52,545 bases of DNA from Bdellovibrionales bacterium. Its GTDB lineage: Bacteria; Bdellovibrionota; Bdellovibrionia; Bdellovibrionales; JAUICD01. Made by a program: the position numbers and the translations under genes. Positions within the stretch are counted from its first letter, which is position 1. Every line of letters starts with the position of its first letter. The stretch spans positions 1 to 52,545 of the forward strand of contig CBDANC010000011.1 in assembly GCA_965197425.1 (NCBI GenBank), given 5' to 3'. This document shows positions 33,267 through 52,545 of this stretch, piece after piece. The notes below the pieces were generated by a model, which had not been told where the DNA came from, ran no database searches, and was given only the letters and a program-made list of their open reading frames with translations.

Positions 33267-33268
33267 GT

Positions 33269-37321: not shown

Positions 37322-37356
37322 TTAGAAAAAACAAAGGAAAAAATCTTCGAAGTAAT

Positions 37357-37455
37357 GATTTGATATTTTAAGCCAATCCTCGAAGTCCTCGAGTAAACCG
37401 CTTGGTAGCGGTTTACCCTGCGGAAGATCTCGTCTTTGGCTTAAAACATCAAATC
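37357..37455. repeat. Second type of long palindromic element
   Basis: gatttgatattttaagccaa/ttggcttaaaacatcaaatc outer stem; gtaaaccgc/gcggtttac inner stem. Confidence 0.65.
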
Positions 37456-37550
37456 TTGTTTTATTATAAAGATTTGTGGATGATTTGTAAGGGAAGGATG
37501 GAAGGAAATTTTCCTTAACATGATGTAAAAAGATGAGGAGAATCTCCCTA

Positions 37551-37648
37551 CTAAAAATGAACAGGTTTTTGAGGCAATGAGCATTTTACGAGGGCGTTAG
37601 CCGTCGTGCTCATTGGCCAAAAATGGTCAGAGACCAGTTCATTTTTAG
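37551..37648 (+). repeat. Structured three-way-junction element, copy E
   Basis: CTAAAAATGAAC/GTTCATTTTTAG; long P2 with bulged A; TGGTC/GACCA hairpin; preceded by the same leader of about 40 bp as D1 and D2. Confidence 0.75.
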
Positions 37649-37668
37649 TGAGATGGAAAGGTGAAAAG

Positions 37669-38037
37669 ATGATACAGATGCAAACTTGGTTAAAAGTCGC
37701 AGACAATTCAGGCGCTAAAGAGGTACAGTGTATAAAAGTGCTTGGGGGTTCTAAAAGGATGATTGCCTCAGTAGGTGATATTATAGTTGTTTCTATAAAA
37801 TCAGCAATTCCTAACTCCAAGGTTAAAAAGGGAGAGAAGGCAAAGGCGGTGATTGTTAGAACGATACACAAACAACGCAGACCGGATGGGAGTTATATAA
37901 GGTTTGATGAGAATGCTGTGGTCTTAGTCAATGCCAATAAAGAGCCTATAGGCACACGTATTTTTGGTCCAGTTGTTCGAGAATTAAGAGCTAAAAAATT
38001 TGTTAAGATTGTTTCCTTAGCTCCAGAAGTTCTATAG
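37669..38037 (+). CDS. rplN: 50S ribosomal protein L14
   Basis: [16 protein letters not shown]...RIFGPV.RELR...SLAPEVL, 122 aa. Confidence 0.98.
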
Positions 38038-38202
38038 CAATATTTATTTTTTAGACAGGCTCTAATATTTAGGCAAATAAAAACGGTAAACAACGGCTAA
38101 ACTTTTTAGGCTAGTTGGGATCTCTACTTTTCTCTAATTCTCTATAATCATAACAGAGGGGACTTCCGAGCATGGTGCTGACTTTCCACCATTTAACCCT
38201 TG

Positions 38203-38689
38203 CCTGAGTTTGGCAGTTGAAAAAATAAAGTTGAGTAATTTTAATTACTTAGAGGCGTATTGGAATTTTGTGCCACTAGGTTTTTATTTTGTGGTAGAGA
38301 TTTGAGAGATTTTTTTAAGTTTAAGTAGATTCAATTTTAAGTTGTTTTGGTGGGATTTTAACTCCTATAGCTTTAAATACATCAGCGTTATTGCCATAAA
38401 TGTCTGTTCTTATCCAAATAGTTTTGTCTTTATATCTGACAGGTATAGCTCGTATTTCTTTCAGCTTTAACATAGCTTCCGCTAATCGAGCATTTTTAGC
38501 TCGGCCTAAAGACATGAGGGTTCTGTGATTACTTTTACCATCTTTCCAATAGCTTTCAGCTATGTGATAGTAAGTTTGTCCTCTGGAGTTTTTTGACCAA
38601 AACTCAAACCCAATAACCCCTAACTACTGTAAATAAAGCATTCCTTAAAAAAAATATCCCGAAAATTCAAATCAAGTGTCAAACTCAGG
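38203..38689 (-). mobile_element. Internally deleted IS1634-family derivative, 487 bp
   Basis: Both TIRs present (CCTGAGTTTGGCAGTT ... AAGTGTCAAACTCAGG); transposase 5' and 3' remnants are fused (MSLGR...EIRAIPVR...KQLKIEST). Confidence 0.9.
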
Positions 38690-38787
38690 ACTTAAAATGA
38701 GTTGTTGTATCTGGCTGATGTATGAAGGTTCCTTTAAGACATTCCCGTTAACAGCATTGTCACAGACTCCATTGATAGGTGTCTTTG

Positions 38788-41139
38788 TTATTGATTATTG
38801 ATTATTGATTTTACTTTTTGACAGTTTATTGCAGTAGTTCCGCCGTTTAAACCTAAACATTGCCATCTATAATATGTATTTGTATCTGCAATAGCATTAG
38901 AATTTGGAGTTCCTGCAATACATCCATATTTAATAGAATTGTCACAGACTCCATTGATAGGTGTCTTTGTTATTGATTTTGCTTTTTGACAGTTTATTGC
39001 AGTAGTTCCGCCGTTTAAACCTAAACATTGCCATCTATAATATGTATTTGTATCTGCAATAGCATTAGAATTTGGAGTTCCTGCAATACATCCATATTTA
39101 ATAGAATTGTCACAAACTCCATTGACCGGAGTCTCAAACACAGGTTCTATTTGTATAGAAAGCCACTTCGAACAATTATGACTGCTGCTATTCTTACTAT
39201 TCCTTTTGCTGTTGATACAGAATCTATAAAAATGAGCGCCAGGAGTTGAAGGGGCTTTTAACCTGATTTGTTCAAGGCTTGCTTCCCCTACAGCAAGGGC
39301 TTTAACAACACGGGTTTCCTTAACCGCCTTTTCATTTAATGGATAAAGATACAGGATTGACTCAGTAATATTCTTTATCAAGCTCGCACTTAATATCTTT
39401 TCATTTAATCGATAAAGATACAGGATTGACTCCATGGATGCATTCAACCCAATGTTATAAACAGTTGTAGATAAGGTAAAAAATTGTCCTGGGTGTAAAA
39501 CCATGTCTTTATAAATGTTTGAGGGCTGCTGGATCGCAACATTTGAATGTGTTAAGGGTGTTTCATCGACCTTTTTGTCTTCATGGATTTGAATTCTTTG
39601 AGCTTGGATCACAAGATCTGAACCGGCAGAACGTGTGCGAAAATTGGCTAAAATCACCTTTGTCTGATTTAGAATATTTTGAGCATGAGCTGGTCCTACA
39701 CGAAGATTGCTTTCATCTAATGTGCCGAGAGGATCACCGTTGTAAATCTGATTTGCATTTGAAAATCGCATGATAACCTCACAATAAAATCCACCTTCTT
39801 GTACACACTGATCAGGATAAGACATAATGGTCCGCCATTTGGCATCTGCTGGAGGAGATAGCTCATCAAATATTTTTTGATTCACATAACCATAATTGTA
39901 ATTCGGAGAAGGTAGAGCAGAGTAGATATATCGATCATGCAAGAGCCCCATATTATGACCCAACTCATGTGCAAAAAATGAACTTGGACAATACACAACC
40001 GTATAACCAAAAGCAAGATTCGGATCAGCCGATATATCAGAATTCGGATCTAATATATAAGCAAGACCGCACCGACTCTCAGTAAAGACAGAGATTAAGT
40101 GGACAATATCTGCTTTTAATTCATCACGTCTGATATGAACTTTATCCATAAATCCATCAGAAGGATCTCTAAGGCGTCTTAAGATATTTGGATTTTGTTG
40201 TGAAACGGTTAAGGTCATCTTTTTTTTATCGTCTGTTTTATCGTCTGGTGGATTCGTTTGCTCTTGTTCATTATACTCTACTTCTTCTTTTGTAACTGCA
40301 AAAATTCTTTGATTCACATCACTGTCTATGTAAGCTTGATTGGTTTCAGCCACCATAAGATCAATCAAGGTTTCTATTTGGTCATGTCCTCCTACTGCCT
40401 GTCGAGCTAACGGTGTATAAAAGATAGCCACATCAATACGTGATCCATCTTCTTTATTTAAGGATGATGAGGGTTGAGTAGAACGATCAGAACGATCAGT
40501 AGGAAAAGAAGGCGTTAATGGTTCTGCTCCTGATGGAAGTGCCGATGAATCAATTTCTTGAATTATATAACTTTTCTTATCAGGAGCGGTAAGAATCCTA
40601 TAAGTTGCGTTAGGTGTTTGTAGAGTTCCCGCCACTATATCACCATTGACTACCAGTGTCATTTGTCCCAATTGATTTTCTAATCGACCAAATAATGTGT
40701 ATCCTGTTAAGCTTGATTCTATCCTTTTGTCTATAGAAATTACAAAATTGGCATCATCGAACAAATTGAATAAAAGTGATGCAGGCCTGGATTTATTAAT
40801 AGCTTCATTTAAAACATCTATTTGTTCAAATTTGATTTGGACTTGCTGGCTACGTATAATGTAGTCATGATTTGTCTTATTATGCAATTCTTGTAGAGAT
40901 TCATTCTTTTTATTATCTGAATCAAGGCTTATAAATAAGCCACTTTCTTGGGTGGCCAAATTTCTATCAACACCAACTGAATCTGTTTCCGGATCTACTA
41001 GAGGATTTATTGTTTCTGGCTGTAGTGTCGTATCCAGGTTGAAACAATTTTGAAATCCAACACTTAATAATACGGCGCCTAGCACCAACGCAAAAAGATT
41101 AATATAAAGCAGGGGTTGCTTTTTTAATAATTTACCCAT
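38788..41139 (-). CDS. Lipoprotein reprolysin-like (M12-type) zinc metallopeptidase with Ig/CARDB-like and Cys-rich C-terminal repeats
   Basis: AGGAGA RBS, VGFQNC lipobox, CGLAY, FAHELGHNMGLLHD, RTIMSY Met-turn, two 56-aa NGVC...WQCLGLNGG repeats. Confidence 0.88.
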   Translation of the reverse strand: MGKLLKKQPLLYINLFALVLGAVLLSVGFQNCFNLDTTLQPETINPLVDPETDSVGVDRNLATQESGLFISLDSDNKKNESLQELHNKTNHDYIIRSQQVQIKFEQIDVLNEAINKSRPASLLFNLFDDANFVISIDKRIESSLTGYTLFGRLENQLGQMTLVVNGDIVAGTLQTPNATYRILTAPDKKSYIIQEIDSSALPSGAEPLTPSFPTDRSDRSTQPSSSLNKEDGSRIDVAIFYTPLARQAVGGHDQIETLIDLMVAETNQAYIDSDVNQRIFAVTKEEVEYNEQEQTNPPDDKTDDKKKMTLTVSQQNPNILRRLRDPSDGFMDKVHIRRDELKADIVHLISVFTESRCGLAYILDPNSDISADPNLAFGYTVVYCPSSFFAHELGHNMGLLHDRYIYSALPSPNYNYGYVNQKIFDELSPPADAKWRTIMSYPDQCVQEGGFYCEVIMRFSNANQIYNGDPLGTLDESNLRVGPAHAQNILNQTKVILANFRTRSAGSDLVIQAQRIQIHEDKKVDETPLTHSNVAIQQPSNIYKDMVLHPGQFFTLSTTVYNIGLNASMESILYLYRLNEKILSASLIKNITESILYLYPLNEKAVKETRVVKALAVGEASLEQIRLKAPSTPGAHFYRFCINSKRNSKNSSSHNCSKWLSIQIEPVFETPVNGVCDNSIKYGCIAGTPNSNAIADTNTYYRWQCLGLNGGTTAINCQKAKSITKTPINGVCDNSIKYGCIAGTPNSNAIADTNTYYRWQCLGLNGGTTAINCQKVKSIINNQ

Positions 41140-41165
41140 TTTTATAACACACTCTCCTATCATTA

Positions 41166-41415
41166 ACTTGATCTAAAAAGTAGAAGCTTATGCAAGCTTC
41201 ATTGAGGTCATTTGAGTACTGACTAGCCAGTTCGTTAACTATGTTTTGATAATTTGCAGGTTCTAATATTGAACTTTGTTGATTATTTAAATTATGGTTC
41301 ATAACTAGTTGAGAGGTCTTTTCGTTATCAAAATAGTTAAGTCAAATTGCATTAAAACAGTAGGAATTAGAAAAGATTTAGACAGTTTAGGGAGGTGCTT
41401 TTTAGGATTAAACAT
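41166..41415 (-). pseudogene. 5' remnant of a paralogue of gene 42127-44292
   Basis: 41166-41289 matches about 44029-44152; the start MFNPKKHLPKLSK resembles MLNPQKHIPKLPK and has the same GCAGGAG RBS. Confidence 0.85.
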
Positions 41416-41499
41416 ATAAATGACTCCTGCAAATTAAAGTTTAGGATAGAGTGTTTGTATTTATTTTGTTTCTTTTTACAATATATGAGGCTTATATAG

Positions 41500-41610
41500 A
41501 TTTCGGCTAAAACCTTAGATAACATTAGAAAAAGATTTGTCTTATTTTGGAATATTCTTAGACAGTCTCAAGGTTATTAATTTCTTGGATAACAAAACTC
41601 ATCCTATAAA
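41500..41610 (-). promoter_or_regulatory. Conserved cassette upstream region; candidate sigma28-like promoter
   Basis: Homologous to about 44394-44510 and 50885-50932; the minus strand has TAAT-N16-G(C/T)CGAAA, resembling TAAA-N15-GCCGATAA. Confidence 0.4.
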
Positions 41611-41621
41611 GAATAGACTTG

Positions 41622-41895
41622 TAAAAGGATTAGTGATGTTATAATTGTTTCTATAAAATCAGCAATTCCTAACTCCAAGGTTAAAAAGGGAGAGAAGGCA
41701 AAGGCGGTGATTGTTAGAACGATACACAAACAACGAAGACCGGATGGGAGTTATATAAGGTTTGATGAGAATGCTGTGGTCTTAGTCAATGCCAATAAAG
41801 AGCCTATAGACACACGTATTTTTGGTCCAGTTGTTCGTGAGTTAAGAGCTAAAAAGTTTGTTAAGATTGTTTCCTTAGCCCCAGAAGTTTTATAA
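41622..41895 (+). pseudogene. rplN: rplN 3' fragment, copy 2
   Basis: Near-identical to 37752-38037 with a deletion of about 12 bp at its 5' edge; no start codon; IGT changed to IDT. Confidence 0.92.
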
Positions 41896-41948
41896 AAAAT
41901 ACCCATATTTTTTTTCAATGTCATTGTCATGTTCAATAGGTATTTTAA

Positions 41949-42090
41949 TTACCTGCAAGCTAAACCGCCACTACATGAAGTTGATTGACCACCATTTACT
42001 CCGCTACATCTCCATGTGCATCCACCTGCACTACAGTGCCAGCCAGATGGAGTTCCAACGCTGCAATTTGGACCAACGATTACCAACGGC
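41949..42090 (-). pseudogene. Orphan Cys-rich C-terminal module
   Basis: Reads PNCSVGTPSGWHCSAGGCTWRCSGVNGGQSTSCSGGLACR* with no start codon. Confidence 0.8.
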
Positions 42091-42126
42091 TAAACTTTTT
42101 AGGTTAGTTGGGATCTCTACTTTCCT

Positions 42127-44292
42127 CTAATTCTCTATAATACTCTCTATAATAGGATCCTCATCTGAGCATGACGCTGACTGCCCGCCATTCAAACCTT
42201 GACATGTCCAAGTCCACCCTGAATTCGTTTGTTTAGTATTTGTAGCTCTTCCTCTAGTACATCCATAAGCATAAGGTTGGCAAGATCCGTCTTGGGGTGG
42301 AGCCTCTGGCTTAGCTTCTGCACAATGCACATTCAAGCCACCATTTAACCCAAAGCATCTCCAACTCCAATAATTAGGTCCATCATAATCACCGACAGAT
42401 GTTCCTCTAGTACATCCATAAGCATAAGGTTGGCAAGATCCATCTTCAGGTGGAGCCTTTGGCTTACCTTCTGCACAATGCGCATTCAAGCCACCATTTT
42501 TTCCAAAGCATCTCCAAGTCCATTTACTAGGTCCTTCATGAGTACCGACAGCTTTTCCTACCGTACAATTATAATGGTTAGATCCACATTTTCCATTGAC
42601 TGCAGGTGTTGGTATTAACCTAGAGCAATCAACACTGCTGCCACCTTTTGAGCCTGCACAATGCCACATATAATGAGTTGTTATATCTGGTCGATCGATA
42701 AAAGTACCTTGGTTACATCCATTTTTAACAGTAACGCTACAAGATCCATTGATAGGTATTATTTTAGAGCAATTGTCATTGGTGCCTCCATTTAAGCCTG
42801 CACATTGCCACTTAAAATGAGTTGTTGTATCTGGCTGATGTATGAAAGTTCCTTTAAGACATCCACCGTTAACAGTATTGTCACAGGCTCCATTGATAGA
42901 CGTCTTTGTTGTTGGTTTTACCTTTTGGCAATTTGTAGCAGTAGTTCCACCATTTAAACCTGAACATTGCCATCTATAATGAGTGCTTGTCTCTATACTT
43001 GATGTTGCAGTTCCTGCAACACATCCATATTTAATAGCATTGTTACAGACTCCATTGATAGGCGTATTTACTCTTGTTGGTTGTGGTATTGTTGTTGTTG
43101 GTTGTGGTATTGTTGTTGTCGTTGATTTAGGATGAGAGCAGGTAACTTCACGGTTAGGACTTGTGTGTGGAATACTTCTACAAGTCCATCGATAATGTGT
43201 ACTGTTATCTTCTGGGTGATTGTGGAAATTTCCAGCAGCACAAGAGTTTTCTGTGTTGCCACATCTTCCTATGATTTTTTGAGTTATGGTTGTCGTTGGA
43301 GAAGTTTCTAAGCTTGCTAAATCCTGTGAATTCTCTTCGCTTTGAGGCTCTCTTAAATTAGCAACAATTTGACTTATATTTTTGTAAATAGTTCTTGGAT
43401 ACCTCCATCCAACTTCTGCATCTGGATCTGTATCTATAAGATTTTGTGTGTCATCAATCCATGTGATTTGAGGACTATCTTGGTCACAATCAATGATTTT
43501 GATGATAGAAATTGAAAGAGCCGAATTATCGGTTCCACAGTTGTAAGCTATTGTATTTGTTGATAGGTTATTACAATCTCCATCTATGCAAAAATAACCC
43601 CAAAGGTTATCATTAGAATATAAACGATCTAAAGCTCTATCTATAAAACTCCAATCTTGGGTATCTTGGCAGGAGGTTGAAAAATCCTGAGAGTATGTAG
43701 TTGATAACTCTTGTAGTAATACTTCGTTATTTTCAGGACTACAATTAGAATCTGTGTTGATAGAATTTGTTTCTTGGCTTCCACTCATTCTGGGAAATTG
43801 CCATTTACTAACGGTATCTTCGCTTTCGATATTCCAGGCTGCAGATGGATCAGCATTGTCTTCACAGACATTATCAATAACTTTTATAACAAAGACATTG
43901 CTTAAATCTTTTTGAGTATCTGTTTGAGAGCCTTTATAGAAACTGACTGAATCTCTAGAAATATTTTCACAATCTCCTTGCTGGCAGCTATAACCAAAGT
44001 TAACATCTTTGGCTCTCAAGGCTTCAACAACTTGATCTAAAAAGTAGAAGCTTATGCAAGCTTCATTGAGGTCATTTGAGTACTGACTAGCCAGTTCGTT
44101 AACTATGTTTTGATAATTTGCAGGTTCTAATATTGAACTTTGTTGATTATTTACATTATTGTTATCTAAAGCTTCTGGATCTAATTTACAATTCATAAAG
44201 GCAACTGTTATGAACAATGAACTTAGAATTAAGACAGTAGGAATTAGAAGATGTTTAGGGAGTTTGGGGATGTGTTTTTGAGGATTAAGCAT
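42127..44292 (-). CDS. Cys-rich modular lipoprotein
   Basis: VAFMNC lipobox; duplicated N-terminal domain ending W.(F/Y)PR; Thr/Pro linker; about 7 NG.C...W.C.G.NGG modules. Confidence 0.88.
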   Translation of the reverse strand: MLNPQKHIPKLPKHLLIPTVLILSSLFITVAFMNCKLDPEALDNNNVNNQQSSILEPANYQNIVNELASQYSNDLNEACISFYFLDQVVEALRAKDVNFGYSCQQGDCENISRDSVSFYKGSQTDTQKDLSNVFVIKVIDNVCEDNADPSAAWNIESEDTVSKWQFPRMSGSQETNSINTDSNCSPENNEVLLQELSTTYSQDFSTSCQDTQDWSFIDRALDRLYSNDNLWGYFCIDGDCNNLSTNTIAYNCGTDNSALSISIIKIIDCDQDSPQITWIDDTQNLIDTDPDAEVGWRYPRTIYKNISQIVANLREPQSEENSQDLASLETSPTTTITQKIIGRCGNTENSCAAGNFHNHPEDNSTHYRWTCRSIPHTSPNREVTCSHPKSTTTTIPQPTTTIPQPTRVNTPINGVCNNAIKYGCVAGTATSSIETSTHYRWQCSGLNGGTTATNCQKVKPTTKTSINGACDNTVNGGCLKGTFIHQPDTTTHFKWQCAGLNGGTNDNCSKIIPINGSCSVTVKNGCNQGTFIDRPDITTHYMWHCAGSKGGSSVDCSRLIPTPAVNGKCGSNHYNCTVGKAVGTHEGPSKWTWRCFGKNGGLNAHCAEGKPKAPPEDGSCQPYAYGCTRGTSVGDYDGPNYWSWRCFGLNGGLNVHCAEAKPEAPPQDGSCQPYAYGCTRGRATNTKQTNSGWTWTCQGLNGGQSASCSDEDPIIESIIEN

Positions 44293-44539
44293 ATAGTAAA
44301 TAACTCCTGCAAATTAAAGTTTATGAAATTTACTTTTTAGGGTATTTGTATTTATTTTGTTTCTTTTTATAATTATGAGGCTTACATAAGTAGCTTTCGA
44401 CTAAAGTCTTAAATAACATTAGAGAAATATTGTCTTATTTTGGGATATTCTTAGACAGTCTCAAGTTCAAGGTTATTAATTTCTTGGATAACAAAACTCA
44501 TCCTATAAATACAGGTTCATTTTGAGTCACATAGACTTG

Positions 44540-44814
44540 TAAAAGGATTAGTGATATTATAGTTGTTTTTATAAAATCAGCTATTTTCTAACTCCAAAGT
44601 TAAAAAAGGAGAGAAGGCAAAGGCGGTGATTGTTAGAACGATACACAAACAACGAAGACCGGATGGGAGTTACATCAGATTTGATGAAAATGCTGTGGTC
44701 TTAGTCAATGCCAATAAAAAGCCTATAGGCACACGTATTTTTAGTCCAGTTGTTCGTGAGTTAAGAGCTAAAAGGTTTGTTAAGATTGTTTCCTTAGCTC
44801 CAGAAGTTTTATAA
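44540..44814 (+). pseudogene. rplN: rplN 3' fragment, copy 3
   Basis: Same 5' breakpoint as copy 2; more substitutions and a 1-bp insertion near 44585. Confidence 0.92.
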
Positions 44815-44866
44815 AAAATACTCATATTTTTTCAACTGTCATTGTCATGTTCAATAGGTATTTTAA

Positions 44867-45010
44867 CTACCTGCAAGCTAAACCACCACTACATGAAGTT
44901 GATTGGCCACCATTTACTCCGCTACATCTCCATGTGCATCCACTTCCGCTACAGTTCCAGCCAGAGGGGGTTCCAACGCTGCAATTTGGATCAACGATTA
45001 CCAACGGCCT
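44867..45010 (-). pseudogene. Orphan Cys-rich C-terminal module, second copy
   Basis: Reads DPNCSVGTPSGWNCSGSGCTWRCSGVNGGQSTSCSGGLACR*. Confidence 0.8.
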
Positions 45011-45043
45011 TATAGTGAGGAAAATGTTGATTTGATGAACATA

Positions 45044-48000
45044 CTAGTAGCTAAAGCAAGGTCCTTGTGTTGTGCCACCACATTCGCAATTCCATTCTTG
45101 GGTACCTTCGTTATCTATGAATCCAGTTTGTGATGTGCCTCTCACACAATCACTACTAGTACACCAATCTCCTTCAGGACAACTGTTTTCACAGCTTGCG
45201 TTACACCCACTGCCTACAAGGCTTTGATGGCTTGGGCAGGATGTTACTGGAGTCTTACAAGCATTACCACACCATATTTGATTACCACTACATCTGTTAA
45301 CACAAGTTGCGCTACATCCACTTCCACTAAGTCTTTGGTGGCTTGGACACGATGTCACTTGTGTTTTACAAGCATTATTACACCATATTTGATTACCACT
45401 ACATCTGTTGACACAAGTTGCGCTACATCTACTTCCACTAAGTCTTTGGTGGCTTAGGCAGGATGTCACTTGTGTTTTACAAGTATTGCTGCACCATATT
45501 TGATTACCACTACATCTGTTAACACAAGTTGCGCTACATCCACTTCCACTAAGTCTTTGGTGGCTTGGGCACGATGTTATTGGTGTTTTACAAGTATTGC
45601 TGCACCATATTTGATTACCACTACATCTGTTAACACAAGTTGCGCTACATCCACTTCCACTAAGTCTTTGGTGGCTTGGACATGATGTTATTGGTGTTTT
45701 ACAAGTATTGCTGCACCATATTTGATTACCACTACATCTGTTAACACAAGTTGCGCTACATCCACTTCCACTAAGCCTTTGGTGGCTTGGACATGATGTC
45801 ACTTGTGTTTTACAAGTATTGCTGCACCATATTTGATTACCACTACATCTGTTAACACAAGTTGCACTACATCCACTTCCACTAAGTCTTTGGTGGCTTG
45901 GGCACGATGTCACTTGTGTTTTACAAGTATTGCTGCACCATATTTGATTACTACTACATCTGTTGACACAAGTTGCACTACACCCACTTCCACTAAGCCT
46001 TTGGTGGCTTGGACATGATGTCACTTGTGTTTTACAAGTATTGCTGCACCATATTTGATTACTACTACATCTGTTGACACAAGTTGCACTACACCCACTT
46101 CCACTAAGTCTTTGGTGGCTTGGGCACGATGTCACTTGTGTTTTGCAGGTATTGCTGCACCATATTTGATTGCCACTACATCTGTTGACACAAGTTGCAC
46201 TACACCCACTTCCACTAAGTCTTTGGTGGCTTGGGCACGATGTCACTTGTGTTTTACAAGTATTGCTGCACCATATTTGATTACCACTACATCTGTTGAC
46301 ACAAGTTGCGCTACATCCACTTCCACTAAGTCTTTGGTGGCTTGGGCACGATGTCACTTGTGTTTTACAAGTATTGCTGCACCATATTTGATTACCACTA
46401 CATTTGTTGACACAAGTTGCGCTACATCCACTTCCACTAAGTCTTTGGTGGCTTGGACATGATGTTATTGGTGTTTTACAAGTATTGCTGCACCATATTT
46501 GATTGCCACTACATCTGTTGACACAAGTTGCACTACACCCACTTCCTGTAAGCCTCTGGTGGCTTGGGCACGATGTCACTTGTGTTTTGCAAGCATTGCT
46601 GCACCATATTTGATTGCCACTACATCTGTTGACACAAGTTGCACTACACCCACTTCCTGTAAGCCTCTGGTGGCTTGGGCACGATGTCACTTGTGTTTTG
46701 CAAGCATTGCCACACAGTATTTGTCCACTTGGACAATCTCTTACACATAAATTACCGCTTTTTGAGTAACCAGAGTTACAAGTCCAGCTATAACATCCCT
46801 TGCTATCCGCACTACAAGTAGAGTTTGTAGGTTTATTGTTGTTACATGAGGTAGAAGTAGAGCAATTAGGTATTCTCTTTAGACAACCTGTTGCAGAGGT
46901 GCCTTTAGGAGTTCCTGCTCCTGGGCAGTGCCATCGATCATATCCTCCACTGGCCGTTTTATTCGTAGCAGATGCAGATGAAGAGCAAGCGTATTTGACA
47001 TTGTTATTGCACTGGCCGTTCTCTGTAGCGGTGACACAGGAATTACCACTTTTTGTATAACCAGAGTCACAAGCCCAGCTATAACATCCTTTACTATCTG
47101 CGCTGCATGTTGAGTTTGTAGGTTTGCTGCTACTACATGAACTAGAAGTAGAACAATTAGGTATTCTCTTTAGACAACTTGTAGCAGTGCTGCCGGTAGG
47201 TGTACCAGCTCCCGGACAATGCCATCGATCATATCCTCCACTGGCCGTTTTATTCGTAGCAGATGCAGATGAAGAACAAGCATATTTGACATTGTTATTG
47301 CACTGACCGTTCTCTGTAGCGGTTACACAGGAATTACCGCTTTTTGTATAACCAGAGTTACAAGCCCAGCTATAACATCCTTTACTATCTGCACTGCATG
47401 TTGAGTTTGTAGGTTTATTGCTACTGCATGAACTAGAAGTAGAGCAATTAGGTATTCTCTTTAGACAACTTGTAGCAGTGCTGCCTTTAGGAGTTCCTGC
47501 TCCTGGACAATACCATCGATCATATCCCCCACTAGCGGTTTTATTCGTAGCAGCAGCAGAAGATGCACAACCATATTTCACATTGTTATTGCACTGGCCG
47601 TTCTCTGTTGCAGTGACACAGGAGTTACCGCTTTTTGAGTAACCAGAGTCACAAGCCCAGCTATAACATCCTTTACTATCTGCACTGCATGTTGAGTTTG
47701 TAGGTTTGCTGCTACTGCATGAACTAGAAGTAGAGCAATTAGGGATTCTCTTTAGACAACCTGTTGCAGTGGCGCCTTTAGGAGTTCCTGCTCCTGGGCA
47801 ATGCCATCGATCATATCCTCCACTGGCCGTTTTATTCGTAGCAGCAGCAGAAGATGCACAAGCATATTTGACATTGTTATTGCACTGGCCGTTCTCTGTT
47901 GCAGTGACACAGGAGTTACCACTTTTTGTATAACCAGAGTCACAAGCCCAGCTATAACATCCTTTACTATCTGCACTGCATGTTGAGTTTGTAGGTTTGC

Positions 48001-50836
48001 TGCTACTGCATGAAGTAGAAGTAGAGCAATTAGGTATTCTCTTTAGACAACTTGTTGCAGTGGTGCCTTTAGGAGTTCCTGCTCCTGGACAATACCATCG
48101 ATCATATCCCCCACTAGCGGTTTTATTCGTAGCAGCAGCAGAAGATGCACAACCATATTTCACATTGTTATTGCACTGGCCGTTCTCTGTTGCAGTGACA
48201 CAGGAGTTACCACTTTTTGTATAACCAGAGTCACAAGCCCAGCTATAACATCCTTTACTATCTGCACTGCATGTTGAGTTTGTAGGTTTGCTGCTACTGC
48301 ATGAAGTAGAAGTAGAGCAATTAGGTATTCTCTTTAGACAACTTGTTGCAGTGGTGCCTTTAGGAGTTCCTGCTCCTGGACAATACCATCGATCATATCC
48401 CCCACTAGCGGTTTTATTCGTAGCAGCAGCAGAAGATGCACAACCATATTTCACATTGTTATTGCACTGGCCGTTCTCTGTTGCAGTGACACAGGAGTTA
48501 CCGCTTTTTGAGTAACCAGAGTCACAAGCCCAGCTATAACATCCTTTACTATCTGCACTGCATGTTGAGTTTGTAGGTTTGCTGCTACTGCATGAACTAG
48601 AAGTAGAGCAATTAGGTATTCTCTTTAGACAACTTGTTGCAGTGGTGCCTTTAGGAGTTCCTGCTCCTGGACAATACCATCGATCATATCCCCCACTAGC
48701 GGTTTTATTCGTAGCAGCAGCAGAAGATGCACAACCATATTTCACATTGTTATTGCACTGGCCGTTCTCTGTTGCAGTGACACAGGAGTTACCACTTTTT
48801 GTATAACCAGAGTCACAAGCCCAGCTATAACATCCTTTACTATCTGCACTGCATGTTGAGTTTGTAGGTTTGCTGCTACTGCATGAAGTAGAAGTAGAGC
48901 AATTAGGTATTCTCTTTAGACAACTTGTTGCAGTGGTGCCTTTAGGAGTTCCTGCTCCTGGACAATACCATCGATCATATCCCCCACTAGCGGTTTTATT
49001 CGTAGCAGCAGCAGAAGATGCACAACCATATTTCACATTGTTATTGCACTGGCCGTTCTCTGTTGCAGTGACACAGGAGTTACCGCTTTTTGAGTAACCA
49101 GAGTCACAAGCCCAGCTATAACATCCTTTACTATCTGCACTGCATGTTGAGTTTGTAGGTTTGCTGCTACTGCATGAACTAGAAGTAGAGCAATTAGGGA
49201 TTCTCTTTAGACAACCTGTTGCAGTGGCGCCTTTAGGAGTTCCTGCTCCTGGGCAATGCCATCGATCATATCCTCCACTGGCCGTTTTATTCGTAGCAGC
49301 AGCAGAAGATGCACAAGCATATTTGACATTGTTATTGCACTGGCCGTTCTCTGTTGCAGTGACACAGGAGTTACCACTTTTTGTATAACCAGACTTACAT
49401 TCTAAACAGATGTCTGTAGTACCACCATTTTCACCTTCGCATTTCCAAGTCCATTGGGAAGTTTCACTCTTTCTGTTTATAGAAGTTCCAGCACTACAGT
49501 TGTAATGAGTAGAAGCGCATCTTCCGTTTATTTTTGTAAATGTTTGTGTTGTGGTTGTAACTGGAGGAGTTGTGACTGGGGGAATGGTTACTGGAACTGG
49601 GTCAAGTTCAAAGCCACTTCTTTTTTGATCTCCTTGAGGTTCACGCTCGCTTGCGCTTATGATTGGACATACATGTGATCCAACTCTCTCATTAGTAGGT
49701 CCAAAGTAACAATAATCACCATCCTCTTCACAATAATAATAATAACTTTGTAAAGCAGACTCCTGACTATTGGATGCAAAAAGAGTGATGACTCCTTCTA
49801 TGCAATCTGTACCTGAGCTTGCAGTGATTTCTATCAATTCTCCACCACAACTAAAAGGAAGTTTCCTGCCATTATTAGCCTGATATTGGCAGGTATCTGC
49901 ATTAAGCACTTCTATCTCTACAAAGCGAGTTGTCTCTGATCTTTCATATCTGTAAATATCATTGTTTTCTAATATTACAGGTATATTATTTGTGCTATCT
50001 GTAAAGTGTAATGGATTGAAATATGGTCTTGCATTTGAAGAGATAGTGACTTCTTTTTTTCTATAGGTCAGACACCCAGCAGCGTCAGAGCTTACAGCAG
50101 AGACTTCAATCAGCAATGTTCCAGAGCTTTCTTCAGAAAGATCTATTTCTAATGTATCTACATCTGTTTCATTTGTTGCAGTAGCTCCGGAAGGCAGTTT
50201 AGCTTTCCATTGGATAGAAGAGAAGCTTGTGCTATTTTTCAAGGCAAATGTAACAGAGTCGGATGCACCGGCCTTAAAAGAGGCAGCATTATCTGATGAG
50301 AGTTCTATTTCTAAAATATCATTAAGTGAGCACGAGTCTCCAACTACAAATCTTTTACTAGCCGTTGTTTTAAGCGTGGTTGATTGATAGGCGTTGGCAG
50401 ATACATCATAAGCCCCCAATCCTGAGGAGAACTTTGTTTGATATGTATCTGCTGTTGTTGAAGTGTTTGTTACGATAGGAGCAAAACCTCTTTGGATCGA
50501 CCACTTGTAATTGTCAGAAACTGGATCAGCACCGAGGAATTGAAACTTTATATCTGTATCAGCAGGAAGTAGACGATCTTCTTTAAAGGAACCATCTGTA
50601 GAGTCTATTTCAATGATTTGTCCTGTTTCATAGGTGACTTCTGCAGAGTTTGAGTCTCCTGATGATATATCTATATCGGTTGTTTTACAATTTTGAAAAG
50701 ACAGTAGAAAAATAGGGATAAAAGCGGTTAAAATGTATAGGATGTTTAAATATGTAGGATTTGTATTTCTAAAAAAAGAAACAAATTTTCTTTTTAGTTT
50801 GTTACAAGCTTTAGAATACTTTTGAAATTTATTCAA
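45044..50836 (-). CDS. Giant Cys-rich repeat lipoprotein (1930 aa)
   Basis: LSFQNC lipobox; beta-rich N-terminal region; Pro/Thr linker; nine 97-aa and about fourteen 37-aa Cys repeats. Confidence 0.9.
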   Translation of the reverse strand: MNKFQKYSKACNKLKRKFVSFFRNTNPTYLNILYILTAFIPIFLLSFQNCKTTDIDISSGDSNSAEVTYETGQIIEIDSTDGSFKEDRLLPADTDIKFQFLGADPVSDNYKWSIQRGFAPIVTNTSTTADTYQTKFSSGLGAYDVSANAYQSTTLKTTASKRFVVGDSCSLNDILEIELSSDNAASFKAGASDSVTFALKNSTSFSSIQWKAKLPSGATATNETDVDTLEIDLSEESSGTLLIEVSAVSSDAAGCLTYRKKEVTISSNARPYFNPLHFTDSTNNIPVILENNDIYRYERSETTRFVEIEVLNADTCQYQANNGRKLPFSCGGELIEITASSGTDCIEGVITLFASNSQESALQSYYYYCEEDGDYCYFGPTNERVGSHVCPIISASEREPQGDQKRSGFELDPVPVTIPPVTTPPVTTTTQTFTKINGRCASTHYNCSAGTSINRKSETSQWTWKCEGENGGTTDICLECKSGYTKSGNSCVTATENGQCNNNVKYACASSAAATNKTASGGYDRWHCPGAGTPKGATATGCLKRIPNCSTSSSCSSSKPTNSTCSADSKGCYSWACDSGYSKSGNSCVTATENGQCNNNVKYGCASSAAATNKTASGGYDRWYCPGAGTPKGTTATSCLKRIPNCSTSTSCSSSKPTNSTCSADSKGCYSWACDSGYTKSGNSCVTATENGQCNNNVKYGCASSAAATNKTASGGYDRWYCPGAGTPKGTTATSCLKRIPNCSTSSSCSSSKPTNSTCSADSKGCYSWACDSGYSKSGNSCVTATENGQCNNNVKYGCASSAAATNKTASGGYDRWYCPGAGTPKGTTATSCLKRIPNCSTSTSCSSSKPTNSTCSADSKGCYSWACDSGYTKSGNSCVTATENGQCNNNVKYGCASSAAATNKTASGGYDRWYCPGAGTPKGTTATSCLKRIPNCSTSTSCSSSKPTNSTCSADSKGCYSWACDSGYTKSGNSCVTATENGQCNNNVKYACASSAAATNKTASGGYDRWHCPGAGTPKGATATGCLKRIPNCSTSSSCSSSKPTNSTCSADSKGCYSWACDSGYSKSGNSCVTATENGQCNNNVKYGCASSAAATNKTASGGYDRWYCPGAGTPKGSTATSCLKRIPNCSTSSSCSSNKPTNSTCSADSKGCYSWACNSGYTKSGNSCVTATENGQCNNNVKYACSSSASATNKTASGGYDRWHCPGAGTPTGSTATSCLKRIPNCSTSSSCSSSKPTNSTCSADSKGCYSWACDSGYTKSGNSCVTATENGQCNNNVKYACSSSASATNKTASGGYDRWHCPGAGTPKGTSATGCLKRIPNCSTSTSCNNNKPTNSTCSADSKGCYSWTCNSGYSKSGNLCVRDCPSGQILCGNACKTQVTSCPSHQRLTGSGCSATCVNRCSGNQIWCSNACKTQVTSCPSHQRLTGSGCSATCVNRCSGNQIWCSNTCKTPITSCPSHQRLSGSGCSATCVNKCSGNQIWCSNTCKTQVTSCPSHQRLSGSGCSATCVNRCSGNQIWCSNTCKTQVTSCPSHQRLSGSGCSATCVNRCSGNQIWCSNTCKTQVTSCPSHQRLSGSGCSATCVNRCSSNQIWCSNTCKTQVTSCPSHQRLSGSGCSATCVNRCSSNQIWCSNTCKTQVTSCPSHQRLSGSGCSATCVNRCSGNQIWCSNTCKTQVTSCPSHQRLSGSGCSATCVNRCSGNQIWCSNTCKTPITSCPSHQRLSGSGCSATCVNRCSGNQIWCSNTCKTPITSCPSHQRLSGSGCSATCVNRCSGNQIWCSNTCKTQVTSCLSHQRLSGSRCSATCVNRCSGNQIWCNNACKTQVTSCPSHQRLSGSGCSATCVNRCSGNQIWCGNACKTPVTSCPSHQSLVGSGCNASCENSCPEGDWCTSSDCVRGTSQTGFIDNEGTQEWNCECGGTTQGPCFSY
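45190..46735 (-). repeat. 111-bp coding tandem repeat, about 14 copies
   Basis: Unit CPSHQRLSGSGCSATCVNRCSGNQIWCSNTCKTQVTS. Confidence 0.93.
46750..49392 (-). repeat. 291-bp coding tandem repeat, 9 copies
   Basis: Unit KSGNSCVTATENGQCNNNVKY...GCYSWACDSGY; shadow ORFs recur every 291 bp. Confidence 0.93.
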
Positions 50837-51023
50837 AATCTGAATTCCTATATTTTTTATTTTAAGATGTAAGGCTATAATAGGCTTTCGGCTAAAGTCT
50901 TAAATAGCATTAGAGAAATATTGTCTTATTTTCGCGCAAATCTAAGATGGTTAATGTCCCTTTTGGGGATGGTTGAAATCCCTCGCCTTCAGGCGACGCT
51001 CAATTTTTAACGATCTGAGATAT

Positions 51024-51179
51024 GGGCAAGGGGGTTTGCAAATTGAACAACGGCCATAAAAGCTGAGCATTCAATCAGTGCTAAACATTCTTAATCCATC
51101 GTATAACTCACAAACTTTATTCTTTATCTGTGACGAAGGTGGCCGTTATAGAGGGTTCAATTTACAAATCTCCTTGCCC
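51024..51179. mobile_element. MITE-like element with imperfect terminal inverted repeats of about 25 bp
   Basis: GGGCAAGGGGGTTTGCAAATTGAAC-AACGGCCA ... TGGCCGTT-N7-GTTCAATTTACAAATCTCCTTGCCC. Confidence 0.6.
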
Positions 51180-51330
51180 GTTTTAATAGCTTCTAGTCAA
51201 TTTCCAATTGACCCTTCTATTTGAACCCGAGGGCTTCAAGTCGAGGGTTGTTCAGTTTTTGAGACAACAAAGTTTATTTAAGAGGATAAGCGCAGATTTT
51301 TAGTGAGAAAAGCTCGAGTTAATCTGTTTT

Positions 51331-51415
51331 TAAGGTTTTTTGATATTATTGTTGTTTCTATATTGACTATTTGCTAACTCCAAAGTCAAAAAAGAGGCGA
51401 AGGCGGTGATTGTTA
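51331..51415 (+). pseudogene. rplN: rplN fragment, copy 4, highly degenerate and truncated
   Basis: tgatattattgttgtttctata...ctaactccaaagtcaaaaaagag..gcgaaggcggtgattgtta matches rplN 37776-37858 with indels; same 5' breakpoint. Confidence 0.8.
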
Positions 51416-52545
51416 TTATGGTGTGCAATCATGTATGTTACAGTCACAACCTTTGGGACCAAAAGTTCTAGGGAAACACCATTGTATTCTACAAGTACCT
51501 TTTCCTAGGTATTCAGCTGGTGAAGATGCCTTACACGTTGTGGGGAATGTTTGTACCGGCTCACATTCTTCTTTAATTTTTCCATCCGTTGTTGGTATTG
51601 TACACTGCATTTCTGTTGTAGTACATGAAGCTGTTTGATACCCTTGTCTTTCACAGCTCCAAGTCCATGGGCGTGTTGCATATACAAAGTGATTAGTTGT
51701 GGTTGTGTAAGAGTTTCTGTGCGGCCACCATGGAGGAGTAGTTTTGTTTGTAACAGTGCAGCCACTGCCACATCGATGGACAAGATTCCTTGCGCCGCAG
51801 GTACATTCTGGTTTAGCTCTTCTTTTCCAACAGCTACCACTTTGATAGCATTCTTGAGTAGATGGTAATCTAGATTGGCATAGAGCTGGTGAGGCATATT
51901 CACCAGAGCCAGTACATGATGGCTTCGCTTTACTGCATATTCCTGATGATTGATAACCTCTTTTTGTGCAAGTCCACTGATAGTGAGCGGTTGTATCATC
52001 TGGAGTTTGACTGGCACTGCAGTTATTACCACATCCATCGTTTATAGAGTTGTTACAAGTACAAGATGGTCTTGGCACATCACATTCAAGCTTTCTGTAA
52101 CCACAACTGCTGTCATATTGATTAGGCTCATTTCGACAAGTCCAGATTATGAGAGTATCTGTATCTTCAGGATGATTAACTTGTTCTCCTGCATCACAAG
52201 TGTTTGCTGATGAACCACATACACCGCATGTTACAGGAGTTGGTTTATTGACACAAGTTGCACTACATCCACTTCCACTGAGTCTCTGGTGGCTTGGGCA
52301 CGATGTTATTGGTGTCTTGCAAGCATTGCCACACAGTATTTGTCCACTTGGACAACTTCTTACACAAGAATTACCACTTTGTGTATAACCACCACTGCAT
52401 TTCCATGCATAACATCCATTACTACCAAAGCAATAGGAATTTTCAGGCTTACCAGAATTACAGGCTGGAAGAGAAGTATATGGACGATCACTTGGACAAT
52501 CTCTCACACAAGAATTACCACTCTTTCTGTAGCCAGATTGGCAGG
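51416..52545 (-). CDS. Cys-rich modular protein; 5' end lies outside the window
   Basis: Frame is open to the window edge (CQSGYRKSGNSCVRD); shares CPSGQILCGNACKT..CPSHQRL with 45044 and HPED...WTCR with 42127. Confidence 0.88.
   Translation of the reverse strand, partial: CQSGYRKSGNSCVRDCPSDRPYTSLPACNSGKPENSYCFGSNGCYAWKCSGGYTQSGNSCVRSCPSGQILCGNACKTPITSCPSHQRLSGSGCSATCVNKPTPVTCGVCGSSANTCDAGEQVNHPEDTDTLIIWTCRNEPNQYDSSCGYRKLECDVPRPSCTCNNSINDGCGNNCSASQTPDDTTAHYQWTCTKRGYQSSGICSKAKPSCTGSGEYASPALCQSRLPSTQECYQSGSCWKRRAKPECTCGARNLVHRCGSGCTVTNKTTPPWWPHRNSYTTTTNHFVYATRPWTWSCERQGYQTASCTTTEMQCTIPTTDGKIKEECEPVQTFPTTCKASSPAEYLGKGTCRIQWCFPRTFGPKGCDCNIHDCTP

What the first reader, a model, noticed from the sequence alone, without database searches (positions are those of the whole stretch)
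37669..52545. rplN-anchored, polarised cassette array of Cys-rich surface lipoproteins
Seen: rplX does not follow rplN within 14.5 kb. The unit [antisense Cys-rich lipoprotein gene + conserved upstream region + rplN 3' fragment] repeats, with fragments at 41622, 44540 and 51331. All start at the same point in rplN and decay with distance from the intact gene: near-identical, then more substitutions plus an indel, then eroded. The four cargo genes differ but share module types. No integrase is visible. Inference: a variable-surface-protein locus that grows or exchanges at the rplN end, using a highly conserved essential gene as a recombination anchor. It would be integron- or CRISPR-like in polarity but homology-driven. 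I know of no described system like this.
Basis: partly seen in the sequence, partly recalled or inferred. Interest (0 to 1): 0.88.

Follow-up and report, generated by a model that had tools for sequence, protein, structure and literature searches.

The report
Lipoprotein gene array carrying dead rplN pieces
Four different cysteine-rich lipoprotein genes lie head to tail behind the ribosomal gene rplN, the second, third and fourth each preceded by a dead copy of the end of rplN; this is most likely the scar of one old tandem duplication that ordinary recombination then multiplied and reshuffled, not a new kind of cassette system.

Summary
An intact rplN (37669-38037) is followed by three dead copies of its 3' part, at 41633, 44551 and 51341. 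All start at rplN nt 107-108 and are progressively more decayed. Each lies between two convergently oriented, differing Cys-rich lipoprotein genes.

The "missing rplX" is not an anomaly. In this family rplE follows rplN directly, and in this genus an inversion split the S10 cluster from the spc cluster just after rplN.

The contig does not belong to the 1.6-Mb genome it was binned with. It is collinear at about 91% with a closed Bdellovibrionales chromosome (G004, OZ253553.1). G004 has the same junction but only one fragment and two cargo genes.

The junction, the upstream block and the terminal flank are shared. Relics of older cargo genes lie inside the units, identity is patchy, and there is no recombinase or inverted repeat. 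Together these point to one illegitimate tandem duplication clipped inside rplN, then unequal crossing-over, gene conversion, IS/MITE hits and cargo replacement.

The integron/CRISPR-like "system" is not supported, and the Rhs "tip displacement" model is a published analogue. This scan has found scars of this kind before on other DNA. Interest is modest.

The parts
37669..38037 (+). Intact rplN (uL14), last gene of an S10-type operon (rpsJ..rplN, 31004-38037)
   Evidence: Pfam PF00238 1-122/122, 180 bits; 98% aa identity to the G004 copy
38038..38202 (.). A1: spacer after rplN. 38082-38202 is a relic of the last ~22 codons, stop and trailer of a cargo-2-like gene (minus strand)
   Evidence: 78% to 42075-42201; reverse-frame translation shows the relic C-terminus
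38203..38690 (.). Internally deleted copy of the IS4-like element whose full copy lies at 5734-7683 (DDE transposase 5853-7499)
   Evidence: 38203-38482 matches 5734-6014 at 86%; 38482-38690 matches 7370-7683 at 76-84%; Pfam DDE_Tnp_1. A full copy sits in the G004 array in the other orientation
38788..41163 (-). Cargo 1: lipoprotein-type signal + metzincin/reprolysin-like protease domain + two 56-aa Cys modules. A foreign ~2-kb piece (about 39135-41163) sits inside the shell of a former cargo-2-like gene
   Evidence: Pfam Reprolysin_5/4/3; no homologue of the N-terminal 621 aa found in G004, G002 or G003; best database relatives ~40%; modules 76-81% to cargo 2 modules
41164..41632 (.). B1: upstream block of cargo 1. 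It contains the decayed start, signal peptide and codons ~44-88 of a cargo-2-like gene (41159-41430), then the conserved B core
   Evidence: 41165-41610 matches 44029-44509 at 82%, with a 125-nt exact patch; relic 77% aa to cargo 2 residues 35-90
41633..41894 (+). rplN fragment 1 (rplN nt 107-368): no indel; 6 synonymous and 3 non-synonymous codon differences
41895..42126 (.). A2: spacer holding a relic final Cys module with stop (minus strand, out of frame with cargo 2)
   Evidence: 93% to 44814-45008; translation
42127..44292 (-). Cargo 2: lipoprotein-type signal (FMNC), unique N-terminal half, seven ~48-aa Cys modules
   Evidence: N-terminal half has only ~30% relatives elsewhere in G004/G002; module region folds as a chain of small all-beta units, mean pLDDT 82.9
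44293..44550 (.). B2: upstream block of cargo 2 with the conserved B core
44551..44813 (+). rplN fragment 2: 1-nt insertion; 10 synonymous and 6 non-synonymous codon differences
44814..45043 (.). A3: spacer. Holds the same relic Cys module, here in frame directly behind the stop codon of cargo 3
45044..50836 (-). Cargo 3: 1930-aa lipoprotein-type protein (FQNC) with an N-domain of a genus-specific family, 9 x 291-nt and 14 x 111-nt in-frame tandem repeats; 5' end orthologous to G004 cargo A
   Evidence: 50700-50950 is 91% to G004 2850057-2850309; family has 21 matches in G004, 10 in G002, 0 in G001 and G003
50837..51340 (.). B3: upstream block of cargo 3, interrupted by a ~290-nt MITE-like insertion (about 50950-51235)
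   Evidence: the element's ends occur at five or more other G004 loci; contig depth ~840 there
51341..51415 (+). rplN fragment 3: eroded and truncated; orthologue of the single G004 fragment
   Evidence: 51237-51415 matches G004 locus 14299-14489 at 75%
51416..52545 (-). Cargo 4, 3' part (runs off the contig). Its 5' part, a last B block and ordinary flank genes lie on contig C1 (inferred from synteny with G004)

Best explanation
This is a head-to-tail array of four differing cysteine-rich lipoprotein genes that most likely arose from one illegitimate tandem duplication with a breakpoint inside rplN (nt ~107), later multiplied and reshuffled by ordinary homologous recombination, so that the second, third and fourth units each begin with the same dead 3' piece of rplN as a passenger.

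Shown: the repeats, their shared junction, their graded decay, the relics inside units, the difference from the sister genome, and the lack of any recombinase or inverted repeat.

Inferred, in order:
1. An inversion in genus g2 made rplN the last gene of its operon, facing a lipoprotein gene.
2. A duplication joined the region upstream of that lipoprotein gene to rplN nt ~107.
3. Unequal crossing-over between the rplN-derived repeats and the upstream blocks changed the unit number. Gene conversion, including from the intact rplN, kept patches nearly identical.
4. IS and MITE insertions, deletions and the insertion of a foreign protease gene into an old unit replaced cargo bodies.

The products are likely surface or secreted lipoproteins of a genus-specific family, so the locus likely diversifies the cell surface. 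It has no dedicated machinery.
For: 1. One inherited join-point. All three window fragments start at rplN nt 107-108. The G004 fragment lines up at about the same place, with a small deletion there. All are preceded by homologous 'B' sequence.
2. Homology spans the whole inter-gene block, not just rplN. 41165-42090 matches 44029-45008 at 86%; 41633-42090 matches 44551-45008 at 93%.
3. The last unit ends in a B block followed by ordinary genes with no further fragment, both in closed G004 and on contig C1. A tandem duplication predicts exactly this.
4. Copy number differs between collinear relatives (flanks 90-94% identical): three fragments and four cargo genes here, one fragment and two cargo genes in G004.
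5. Unit 1 is a decayed copy of unit 2. It keeps relics of the start, signal peptide, codons ~44-88 and last ~22 codons of a cargo-2-like gene, with a foreign protease piece and an IS remnant in between.
6. The fragments decay like pseudogenes (synonymous/non-synonymous codon differences from the window rplN): 6/3; 10/6 plus a frameshift; 14/12 plus a stop in G004. The functional G004 rplN shows 13/2.
7. Identity is patchy, which is typical of conversion tracts: 118 of 120 nt identical next to windows with 31 of 60.
8. Fragment 1 is closer to the window rplN (96.8%) than the window and G004 rplN genes are to each other (93.5%). This points to recent exchange with the intact gene.
9. No recombinase, no inverted repeat of 22 nt or more in the array, no homopolymer switch, no Rfam match.
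10. The gene family duplicates readily elsewhere. A second G004 cluster has four paralogues sharing a 90-96% identical 5' half plus upstream region.
11. All fragments and both intact genes form one clade (support 98/99) that excludes G002, so the array arose after that split.
Against: The cargo bodies of units 2 and 3 are unrelated, and their B blocks share only about 50-90 nt. Simple duplication therefore needs later cargo replacement, whose mechanism I did not establish except in unit 1.

The direction of change is open. G004 could have lost two units by one rplN x fragment crossover, rather than this lineage having gained them.

The exact ancestral breakpoint is blurred. About 40 nt between the end of B homology and rplN nt 107 could not be assigned, and no clean microhomology was seen.

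The order of units rests on one short-read-type assembly with exact repeats of up to 125 nt. The public contigs were too fragmentary to confirm it.

Only two genomes carry the structure, so population-level behaviour is unknown.
Confidence: 0.75

Rival explanations
1. rplN-anchored cassette exchange. After a founding event, single units (rplN 3' piece + spacer + cargo + B) would excise as circles by recombination between the rplN-derived repeats. They would re-enter, also from other strains or species, by one crossover in the nearly invariant rplN. New cargo would then always land next to the intact gene and older units would be pushed outward, as proposed for Rhs tips.
For: The extra units relative to G004 are the rplN-proximal ones and carry the youngest fragments. 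Cargo 1's protease part has no homologue in G004, G002 or G003 and only ~40% relatives in the database, so foreign DNA did enter. Fragment 1 has exchanged with the intact rplN recently. A circle of fixed content would reproduce the same junction each time. A published precedent for such a model exists (PMC2935791; abstract and section 10 read).
Against: The foreign protease piece sits inside the relics of an older resident gene. It did not arrive as a clean unit with its own rplN piece. No fragment is closer to another species' rplN than to the resident one. No circles or alternative junctions could be seen: the only odd joint in the public contigs has 23 letters on one side and non-homologous ends. 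Arrays of partial rplN were found in no other of 61 order-level and 400 phylum-level genomes. The same gene family forms near-identical duplicates elsewhere without rplN.
Confidence: 0.12
2. Assembly artefact. The repeated rplN pieces, or the order of units, would result from misjoined short-read contigs or from mixing two strains.
For: The contig was binned into the wrong genome. Exact repeats of 91 and 125 nt link units. Depth in the one public run is only 3-5x and its contigs are fragmentary. The contig ends inside a repeat-rich gene.
Against: The closed single-contig chromosome G004 independently shows an rplN fragment with the same junction and flanks. Each window fragment has its own substitutions and indels and its own flanking relics, which a collapse or chimera would not create. 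The longest exact repeat is shorter than common read lengths.
Confidence: 0.04
3. The rplN pieces are kept for a function. For example, read-through from the upstream cargo gene would make RNA antisense to rplN mRNA, or the pieces would act as spacer or terminator modules between cargo genes.
For: Each piece lies antisense between the stop of one cargo gene and the upstream block of the next. Fragments 1 and 2 are still 93-97% identical to the gene.
Against: The pieces decay with frameshift, stop codons and truncation: 75 nt are left in unit 4, and the G004 copy is 89.5% identical with a stop. The neighbouring spacer A is equally conserved (93%) without being rplN. The simple terminator scan found no more sites than in shuffled sequence, and Rfam found nothing.
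Confidence: 0.04

Closest known systems
Tandem segmental duplication with an inherited join-point, amplified by unequal crossing-over (bacterial gene duplication-amplification, e.g. E. coli lac and Acinetobacter baylyi cat amplification; PMC1428787 and PMC9997567 seen as search listings only; mechanism from general knowledge)
   Same: Head-to-tail units. One novel junction is repeated in every copy. The last copy runs into the original flank. Copy number differs between relatives. RecA-type homology is enough, and a clipped gene at the junction becomes a pseudogene stub.
   Different: The array is old and fixed, not a transient amplification. Units have diverged, carry different cargo and have been invaded by IS and MITE elements. 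The clipped gene is an essential ribosomal gene whose intact copy still converts the nearest stub.
Rhs C-terminal displacement arrays (Jackson et al. 2009, PMC2935791; abstract and section 10 read); orphan CdiA-CT/Rhs-CT modules (PMC3150448, listing and reference list only)
   Same: An integrase-free, homology-driven, polar array. An intact conserved gene is followed by direct repeats of its 3' part, each with a different downstream payload. The fragments degenerate. Circular intermediates and homologous recombination are proposed.
   Different: In Rhs the payload is fused in frame to the conserved core and the core fragments have varying lengths. Here the cargo is a separate, convergently transcribed gene, rplN has no functional link to it, and all fragments share one breakpoint plus upstream homology.
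Variable surface lipoprotein loci of Mycoplasma (Vpma, Vsp, Vlp; PMC2268961 and PMC5634654 abstracts seen in a search listing)
   Same: Clustered paralogous lipoprotein genes with conserved 5' and upstream blocks, variable repetitive bodies, and strain-to-strain differences in repertoire.
   Different: Those loci switch by a site-specific recombinase (Xer1) acting on inverted sites, or by promoter tracts. Here there is no recombinase, no inverted repeat and no homopolymer tract; all genes share one orientation and each has its own upstream block.
Integron cassette arrays
   Same: A polar row of differing genes next to a fixed anchor. In unit 1 a promoter-less foreign ORF was placed behind a resident upstream block.
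   Different: No IntI integrase, attI or attC sites. The repeats are 260-900-nt homologous blocks, not recombination sites.

Membership tests
Tandem duplication / amplification array | Head-to-tail direct repeats of a multi-kb unit | tested here: met
   Unit starts at 37775, 41633, 44551 and 51341; all repeats direct; no inverted repeats
Tandem duplication / amplification array | One novel join-point (unit end joined to unit start) identical in every copy | tested here: met
   B block joined to rplN nt ~107 in all three window copies and in G004
Tandem duplication / amplification array | The last unit continues into the original flank without a join-point | tested here: met
   The terminal B block is followed by ordinary genes in G004 and on contig C1; no further rplN match in either genome
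Tandem duplication / amplification array | Units homologous over their whole length | tested here: inconclusive
   Flanking blocks and relics are homologous, but the cargo bodies of units 2 and 3 are unrelated. This requires later replacement.
Integron | IntI tyrosine recombinase next to the array | tested here: not met
   Pfam scan of 42 window ORFs: only a DDE transposase. The G004 locus has an IS4-like element (a 548-aa transposase-sized ORF, 95% nt to the window's IS) and an IS1595 transposase (NCBIfam); the other G004 ORFs were not scanned.
Integron | attC-type imperfect inverted repeats bounding each cassette | tested here: not met
   No inverted repeat of 22 nt or more within 38038-52545
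Rhs-type C-terminal displacement array | Payload fused in frame to the conserved gene; fragments of varying length | tested here: not met
   Cargo lies on the opposite strand and is not fused. All fragments start at nt 107-108. Compared with PMC2935791 section 10.
Rhs-type C-terminal displacement array | Newest payload next to the intact gene, older ones displaced downstream | tested here: inconclusive
   The proximal units are absent from G004 and have the youngest fragments, but loss in G004 is equally possible
Recombinase-switched variable lipoprotein locus (Vpma/Vsa type) | Site-specific recombinase plus inverted recombination sites that move one promoter | tested here: not met
Bacterial lipoprotein (Lgt/LspA substrate) | N-terminal signal peptide ending in a lipobox with an invariant Cys | tested here: inconclusive
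   Cargo 1-3 have a basic n-region, a hydrophobic stretch and then FQNC or FMNC. [YF]QNC is the commonest tetrapeptide at that place in this bin (15 of 114 signal-like ORFs). The -1 Asn is non-canonical and no predictor or experiment was available.
M12B/reprolysin-like metzincin (cargo 1) | Match to the family profile over the catalytic domain | tested here: met
   Reprolysin_5 54 bits (cut-off 27), Reprolysin_4 51 bits (cut-off 22). The full-length Mep72 model is far below its cut-off (61 vs 645 bits), so the match is at domain level only.

The most novel reading that the evidence does not exclude
The array is a ribosomal-gene-anchored, integrase-free cassette site. Single units excise as circles through the rplN-derived repeats and re-enter, even across species, by one crossover in the almost invariant rplN. 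New surface-protein genes are always added beside the intact gene and older ones are pushed outward. This would be the Rhs tip-displacement logic applied to independent, convergently transcribed genes.
Probability: 0.1. Interest if true: 0.7.

Novelty: new member of a known kind. Interest (0 to 1): 0.3.

Why it matters
The locus is an unusually legible record of how a surface-protein gene family grows. One misplaced duplication breakpoint inside an essential, slowly evolving gene left dated stubs that order the units in time. The stubs show ongoing gene conversion from the live gene. They also show a foreign protease gene being grafted into the shell of an older paralogue, behind that paralogue's upstream region and in frame with its Cys modules.

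The finding has practical uses too. It flags a mis-binned contig. It explains an apparent break in the S10-spc ribosomal cluster by an inversion. It points to a genus-specific, 20-member family of Cys-rich lipoproteins whose repeat module has no relative in the Protein Data Bank or in Pfam.

It does not reveal a new recombination system.

Tried and rejected
- Public reads. One run (X1) holds 89% of the sampled words, but only as short contigs at 3-5x. They neither confirm nor contradict the unit order. A joint 44379>51338 has only 23 letters on one side and joins non-homologous positions, so I treat it as a k-mer path through repeats, not a deletion variant.
- Metagenome scan with an rplN 20-mer invariant in all copies. 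It returned one hit, an unrelated phage-like contig, so no further strains were found.
- Multi-copy rplN elsewhere. In the phylum sample only G369 (two full-length copies on separate contigs) and G212 (one frameshifted gene) had two matches. Neither is an array.
- Promoter and terminator consensus scans of the array gave no more sites than shuffled sequence.
- Rfam at gathering and at E <= 1 found nothing in 36900-52545.
- No homopolymer of 9 nt or more.
- Microhomology at the founding junction could not be resolved.
- Naming the Cys module. Pfam and NCBIfam gave nothing significant: a weak DUF5836 hit of 25.6 bits with no passing stretch. The protein atlas best score was 0.83, below the level that is informative. 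A profile search of PDB sequences gave 0 hits. Foldseek of the 392-residue model against PDB gave 0 hits at E <= 0.001. A single module was not folded or searched on its own.
- Literature. No paper with rplN + pseudogene + tandem duplication, or with 'truncated/partial rplN', 'rplN fragment' or 'rplN pseudogene', in the held library.
- Considered and dropped: that the second S10 operon is a true paralogue within one genome. Synteny of the contig with G004 at ~91%, and 60-80% protein identity to the bin's own copies, argue for a foreign contig.
Full report
WHAT IS THERE. The window is a whole contig (C11 of a 15-contig bin). An S10-type ribosomal operon (rpsJ to rplN, 31004-38037, all with full Pfam matches) ends with an intact rplN at 37669-38037. 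Three partial copies of rplN follow on the same strand: 41633-41894 (96.6%, 262 nt), 44551-44832 (91.5%, one 1-nt insertion) and 51341-51415 (77%, truncated). They start at rplN nt 107, 107 and 108. Four minus-strand ORFs lie between them, of 791, 721, 1930 and at least 375 aa. The first three have a basic N-terminus and a hydrophobic stretch followed by FQNC or FMNC. [YF]QNC is the commonest tetrapeptide at that position in this bin (15 of 114 signal-like ORFs), so they are likely lipoproteins with a clade-typical lipobox. This is inference; no predictor or experiment was available. All four contain Cys-rich modules of about 48-56 aa (nine clean instances). Cargo 3 adds 9 x 291-nt and 14 x 111-nt in-frame tandem repeats. 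Cargo 1 also has a reprolysin/metzincin domain. Its fragment starts are about 10 nt early.

WHOSE DNA IT IS. The bin holds a second, complete S10-spc-alpha cluster on contig C14, with rplN only 72% identical in DNA. The window's ribosomal proteins are 43-84% identical to those copies, and its split transketolase genes are 63-69% identical to copies on C13. In contrast, the window's L14 is 98% identical to that of G004, a closed 2.94-Mb chromosome of another genus of the same family, named 'MAG: Bdellovibrionales bacterium', OZ253553.1. The window is collinear with G004 at 90-94% nucleotide identity over at least 22 kb. So C11, and C1 which continues it, come from a G004-like organism and were mis-binned with a 1.6-Mb relative.

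WHY rplX DOES NOT FOLLOW. In the sister genera rplE directly abuts rplN: C14, and G001 and G003. The only L24-like ORF of the bin lies elsewhere, next to an L28-like ORF (52.2 bits against a cut-off of 53.7). In both genomes of genus g2, rplE is on the opposite strand: 18 kb upstream in G002 and 708 kb away in G004. It heads its own operon, with no rplN piece before it. An inversion breakpoint directly after rplN thus made rplN a terminal gene facing lipoprotein genes. G002 shows this state without any rplN fragment.

ANATOMY OF THE UNITS. Homology between units is not confined to rplN. The whole inter-gene block repeats: B (the region upstream of the cargo gene), the rplN piece, and A (the spacer up to the next cargo gene's stop). 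41165-42090 matches 44029-45008 at 86%, and 41633-42090 matches 44551-45008 at 93%. A conserved B core of about 50-90 nt occurs before every cargo gene, including the last one, in both genomes, and essentially nowhere else in them.

The spacers hold relics. A2 and A3 encode, on the cargo strand, a final Cys module with a stop codon. In A3 it lies in frame directly behind the present stop of cargo 3. A1 holds the last ~22 codons of a cargo-2-like gene. B1 holds that gene's decayed start, signal peptide and a near-identical stretch of codons ~44-88. Between those relics lie cargo 1 and an internally deleted copy of the IS4-like element whose full copy is at 5734-7683.

The N-terminal 621 aa of cargo 1 have no homologue in G004, G002 or G003, and only ~40% relatives among 5.8 billion proteins. 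Homology to cargo 2 resumes within a nucleotide or two of cargo 1's first ATG. I read this as a foreign, promoter-less protease ORF grafted into the shell of an old cargo-2 paralogue, behind its upstream block and in frame with its Cys modules. B3 carries a ~290-nt MITE-like insertion whose ends recur at five or more G004 loci.

COMPARISON WITH G004. The G004 locus reads as follows:
- rplN;
- cargo A, split by a full IS4-like element;
- B;
- one rplN fragment;
- an IS1595 transposase;
- cargo B;
- B;
- ordinary genes (methyltransferase, dcd, recG).

The 5' end and B of the window's cargo 3 are 91% identical to those of G004 cargo A, which is the level of orthologues. The window's fragment 3 and the 3' end of cargo 4 match the G004 fragment and cargo B, and contig C1 supplies the matching 5' part, the last B and the same flanking genes. 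The array therefore has four units and ends without a further fragment (no other rplN match in the bin). Relative to G004, the window has two extra units next to rplN. Because the junction and its upstream sequence are shared, the founding join predates the split of the two species. A tree of the 3' parts puts all fragments and both intact genes in one clade (98/99) that excludes G002.

AGES AND CONVERSION. Identity to the window rplN over nt 122-369:

| Sequence | Identity to window rplN |
|---|---|
| Fragment 1 | 96.8% |
| Fragment 2 | 92.7% |
| G004 rplN | 93.5% |
| G004 fragment | 90.3% |

The G004 fragment is 89.5% identical to its own rplN. Codon differences show pseudogene-like decay: 6 synonymous and 3 non-synonymous; 10 and 6 plus a frameshift; 14 and 12 with a stop. 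The live G004 gene shows 13 and 2.

The other relics of unit 1 are 18-22% diverged from unit 2, whereas fragment 1 differs from rplN by only 3%. Identity along the block also jumps from 118 of 120 to 31 of 60. Patchwise gene conversion, including from the intact rplN onto its nearest copy, is the simplest reading. Either proximal growth or distance-dependent conversion would give the observed polarity. I could not tell them apart, nor exclude that G004 lost two units by one rplN x fragment crossover.

WHAT IT IS NOT. Pfam scans of 42 window ORFs found no tyrosine or serine recombinase, only the DDE transposase. The array has no inverted repeat of 22 nt or more, no homopolymer of 9 nt or more and no Rfam match even at E <= 1. 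Partial-rplN arrays occur in 2 of 61 order-level genomes, this contig and G004. They occur in 0 of 400 further phylum-level genomes; the two double hits there are two full copies and one frameshifted gene. The cargo-3-type N-domain family is genus-specific: 21 matches in G004, 10 in G002, none in G001 or G003. It forms other clusters with a 90-96% identical 5' half plus upstream region and no rplN involved. The rplN piece thus looks like a passenger of a family that duplicates readily.

THE PROTEINS. The Cys-module region has 62 database relatives, five on the G004 chromosome and almost all unnamed. A 26-sequence alignment shows the family plan: FQNC signal, an N-domain of about 400 aa, then a string of ~54-aa modules. 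AlphaFold2 on that alignment gives a confident chain of small all-beta units (mean pLDDT 82.9; pTM 0.38, as expected for beads on a string). There was no PDB match by profile or by Foldseek at E <= 0.001, and no useful atlas hit (0.83). I infer surface-exposed or secreted, disulfide-stabilised proteins, one of them a protease. Their targets are unknown.

COMPARISON WITH WHAT IS KNOWN. The structure meets the defining features of a tandem duplication with an inherited join-point, later amplified. Only unit-wide homology is partly eroded. It fails the defining features of integrons and of recombinase-switched Mycoplasma-type lipoprotein loci.

Its closest conceptual relative is the Rhs C-terminal displacement model: homologous recombination with circular intermediates, with arrays of displaced tips each keeping a piece of the conserved core (PMC2935791; abstract and section 10 read). 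It differs in that Rhs fragments vary in length and are fused to their payload.

Earlier notes of this scan describe scars of the same kind on other DNA (e1-3393872, e1-2025541, e1-4551197). I did not test those. One of them led me to the Rhs paper.

No paper on rplN fragments was found in the held library.

VERDICT. A circle-mediated, rplN-anchored exchange remains possible (about 0.1) and would be worth testing with long reads.

Noticed in passing
whole window (contig C11), plus contig C1 of the same bin: The contig is mis-binned. It is collinear at 90-94% with the closed chromosome G004 (genus g2), while the bin's large contigs belong to a 1.6-Mb genus-g1 organism with its own complete S10-spc-alpha cluster on C14. 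C1 continues the array and its flank. C4 shares repeats with the window and may belong with it.
   Followed up: yes
G000 C14:165186-166096 and C15:406994-407597; G001, G003: In this family rplE follows rplN directly, with no rplX between them. The only L24-like (KOW) ORF, 89 aa, lies next to an L28-like ORF on another contig and scores 52.2 bits against a cut-off of 53.7.
   Followed up: partly
window 31446-32498 and 36408-36956: uL3 (350 aa) and uS17 (182 aa) carry long acidic, Ser/Lys-rich N-terminal extensions. The G004 orthologues (359 and 180 aa) have them too, and the g1 copy of uL3 has a shorter one.
   Followed up: no
window 36919-37653: The 700-nt gap between rpsQ and rplN is filled by two tandem 201-nt repeats (95%) and a third, 79% copy with a 23-nt hairpin (37550-37649). 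The same repeat family occurs on C4 and C1, and as eight tandem 235-nt copies in G004.
   Followed up: partly
window 4870-8859: A full IS4-like element (5734-7683, transposase 548 aa) separates two ankyrin-repeat genes whose first ~293 residues are 98% identical. The window holds at least six ankyrin-repeat ORFs.
   Followed up: no
window 50950-51235: A MITE-like ~290-nt insertion in the upstream block of cargo 3. Its ~60-nt ends recur at five or more G004 loci around variable interiors. Public-run contig depth is ~840 here against 3-5 nearby.
   Followed up: partly
window 16817-19035: A BsuBI/PstI-type restriction endonuclease and an Eco57I/N6-methylase pair. It is 92% identical to a non-syntenic place in G004 and 83% identical to one in G001, so the module seems mobile.
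   Followed up: no
G004 C1:50000-89999 (L039+L040): A second cluster of four paralogues of the FQNC lipoprotein family (780-1082 aa). They share a 90-96% identical 5' half plus about 590 nt upstream and are interspersed with transposase-like and other genes.
   Followed up: partly
window 589-1782, 2546-3712, 11304-12392: Three paralogous ORFs of 362-397 aa (43-50% identical) without any Pfam match, interleaved with the ankyrin genes.
   Followed up: no
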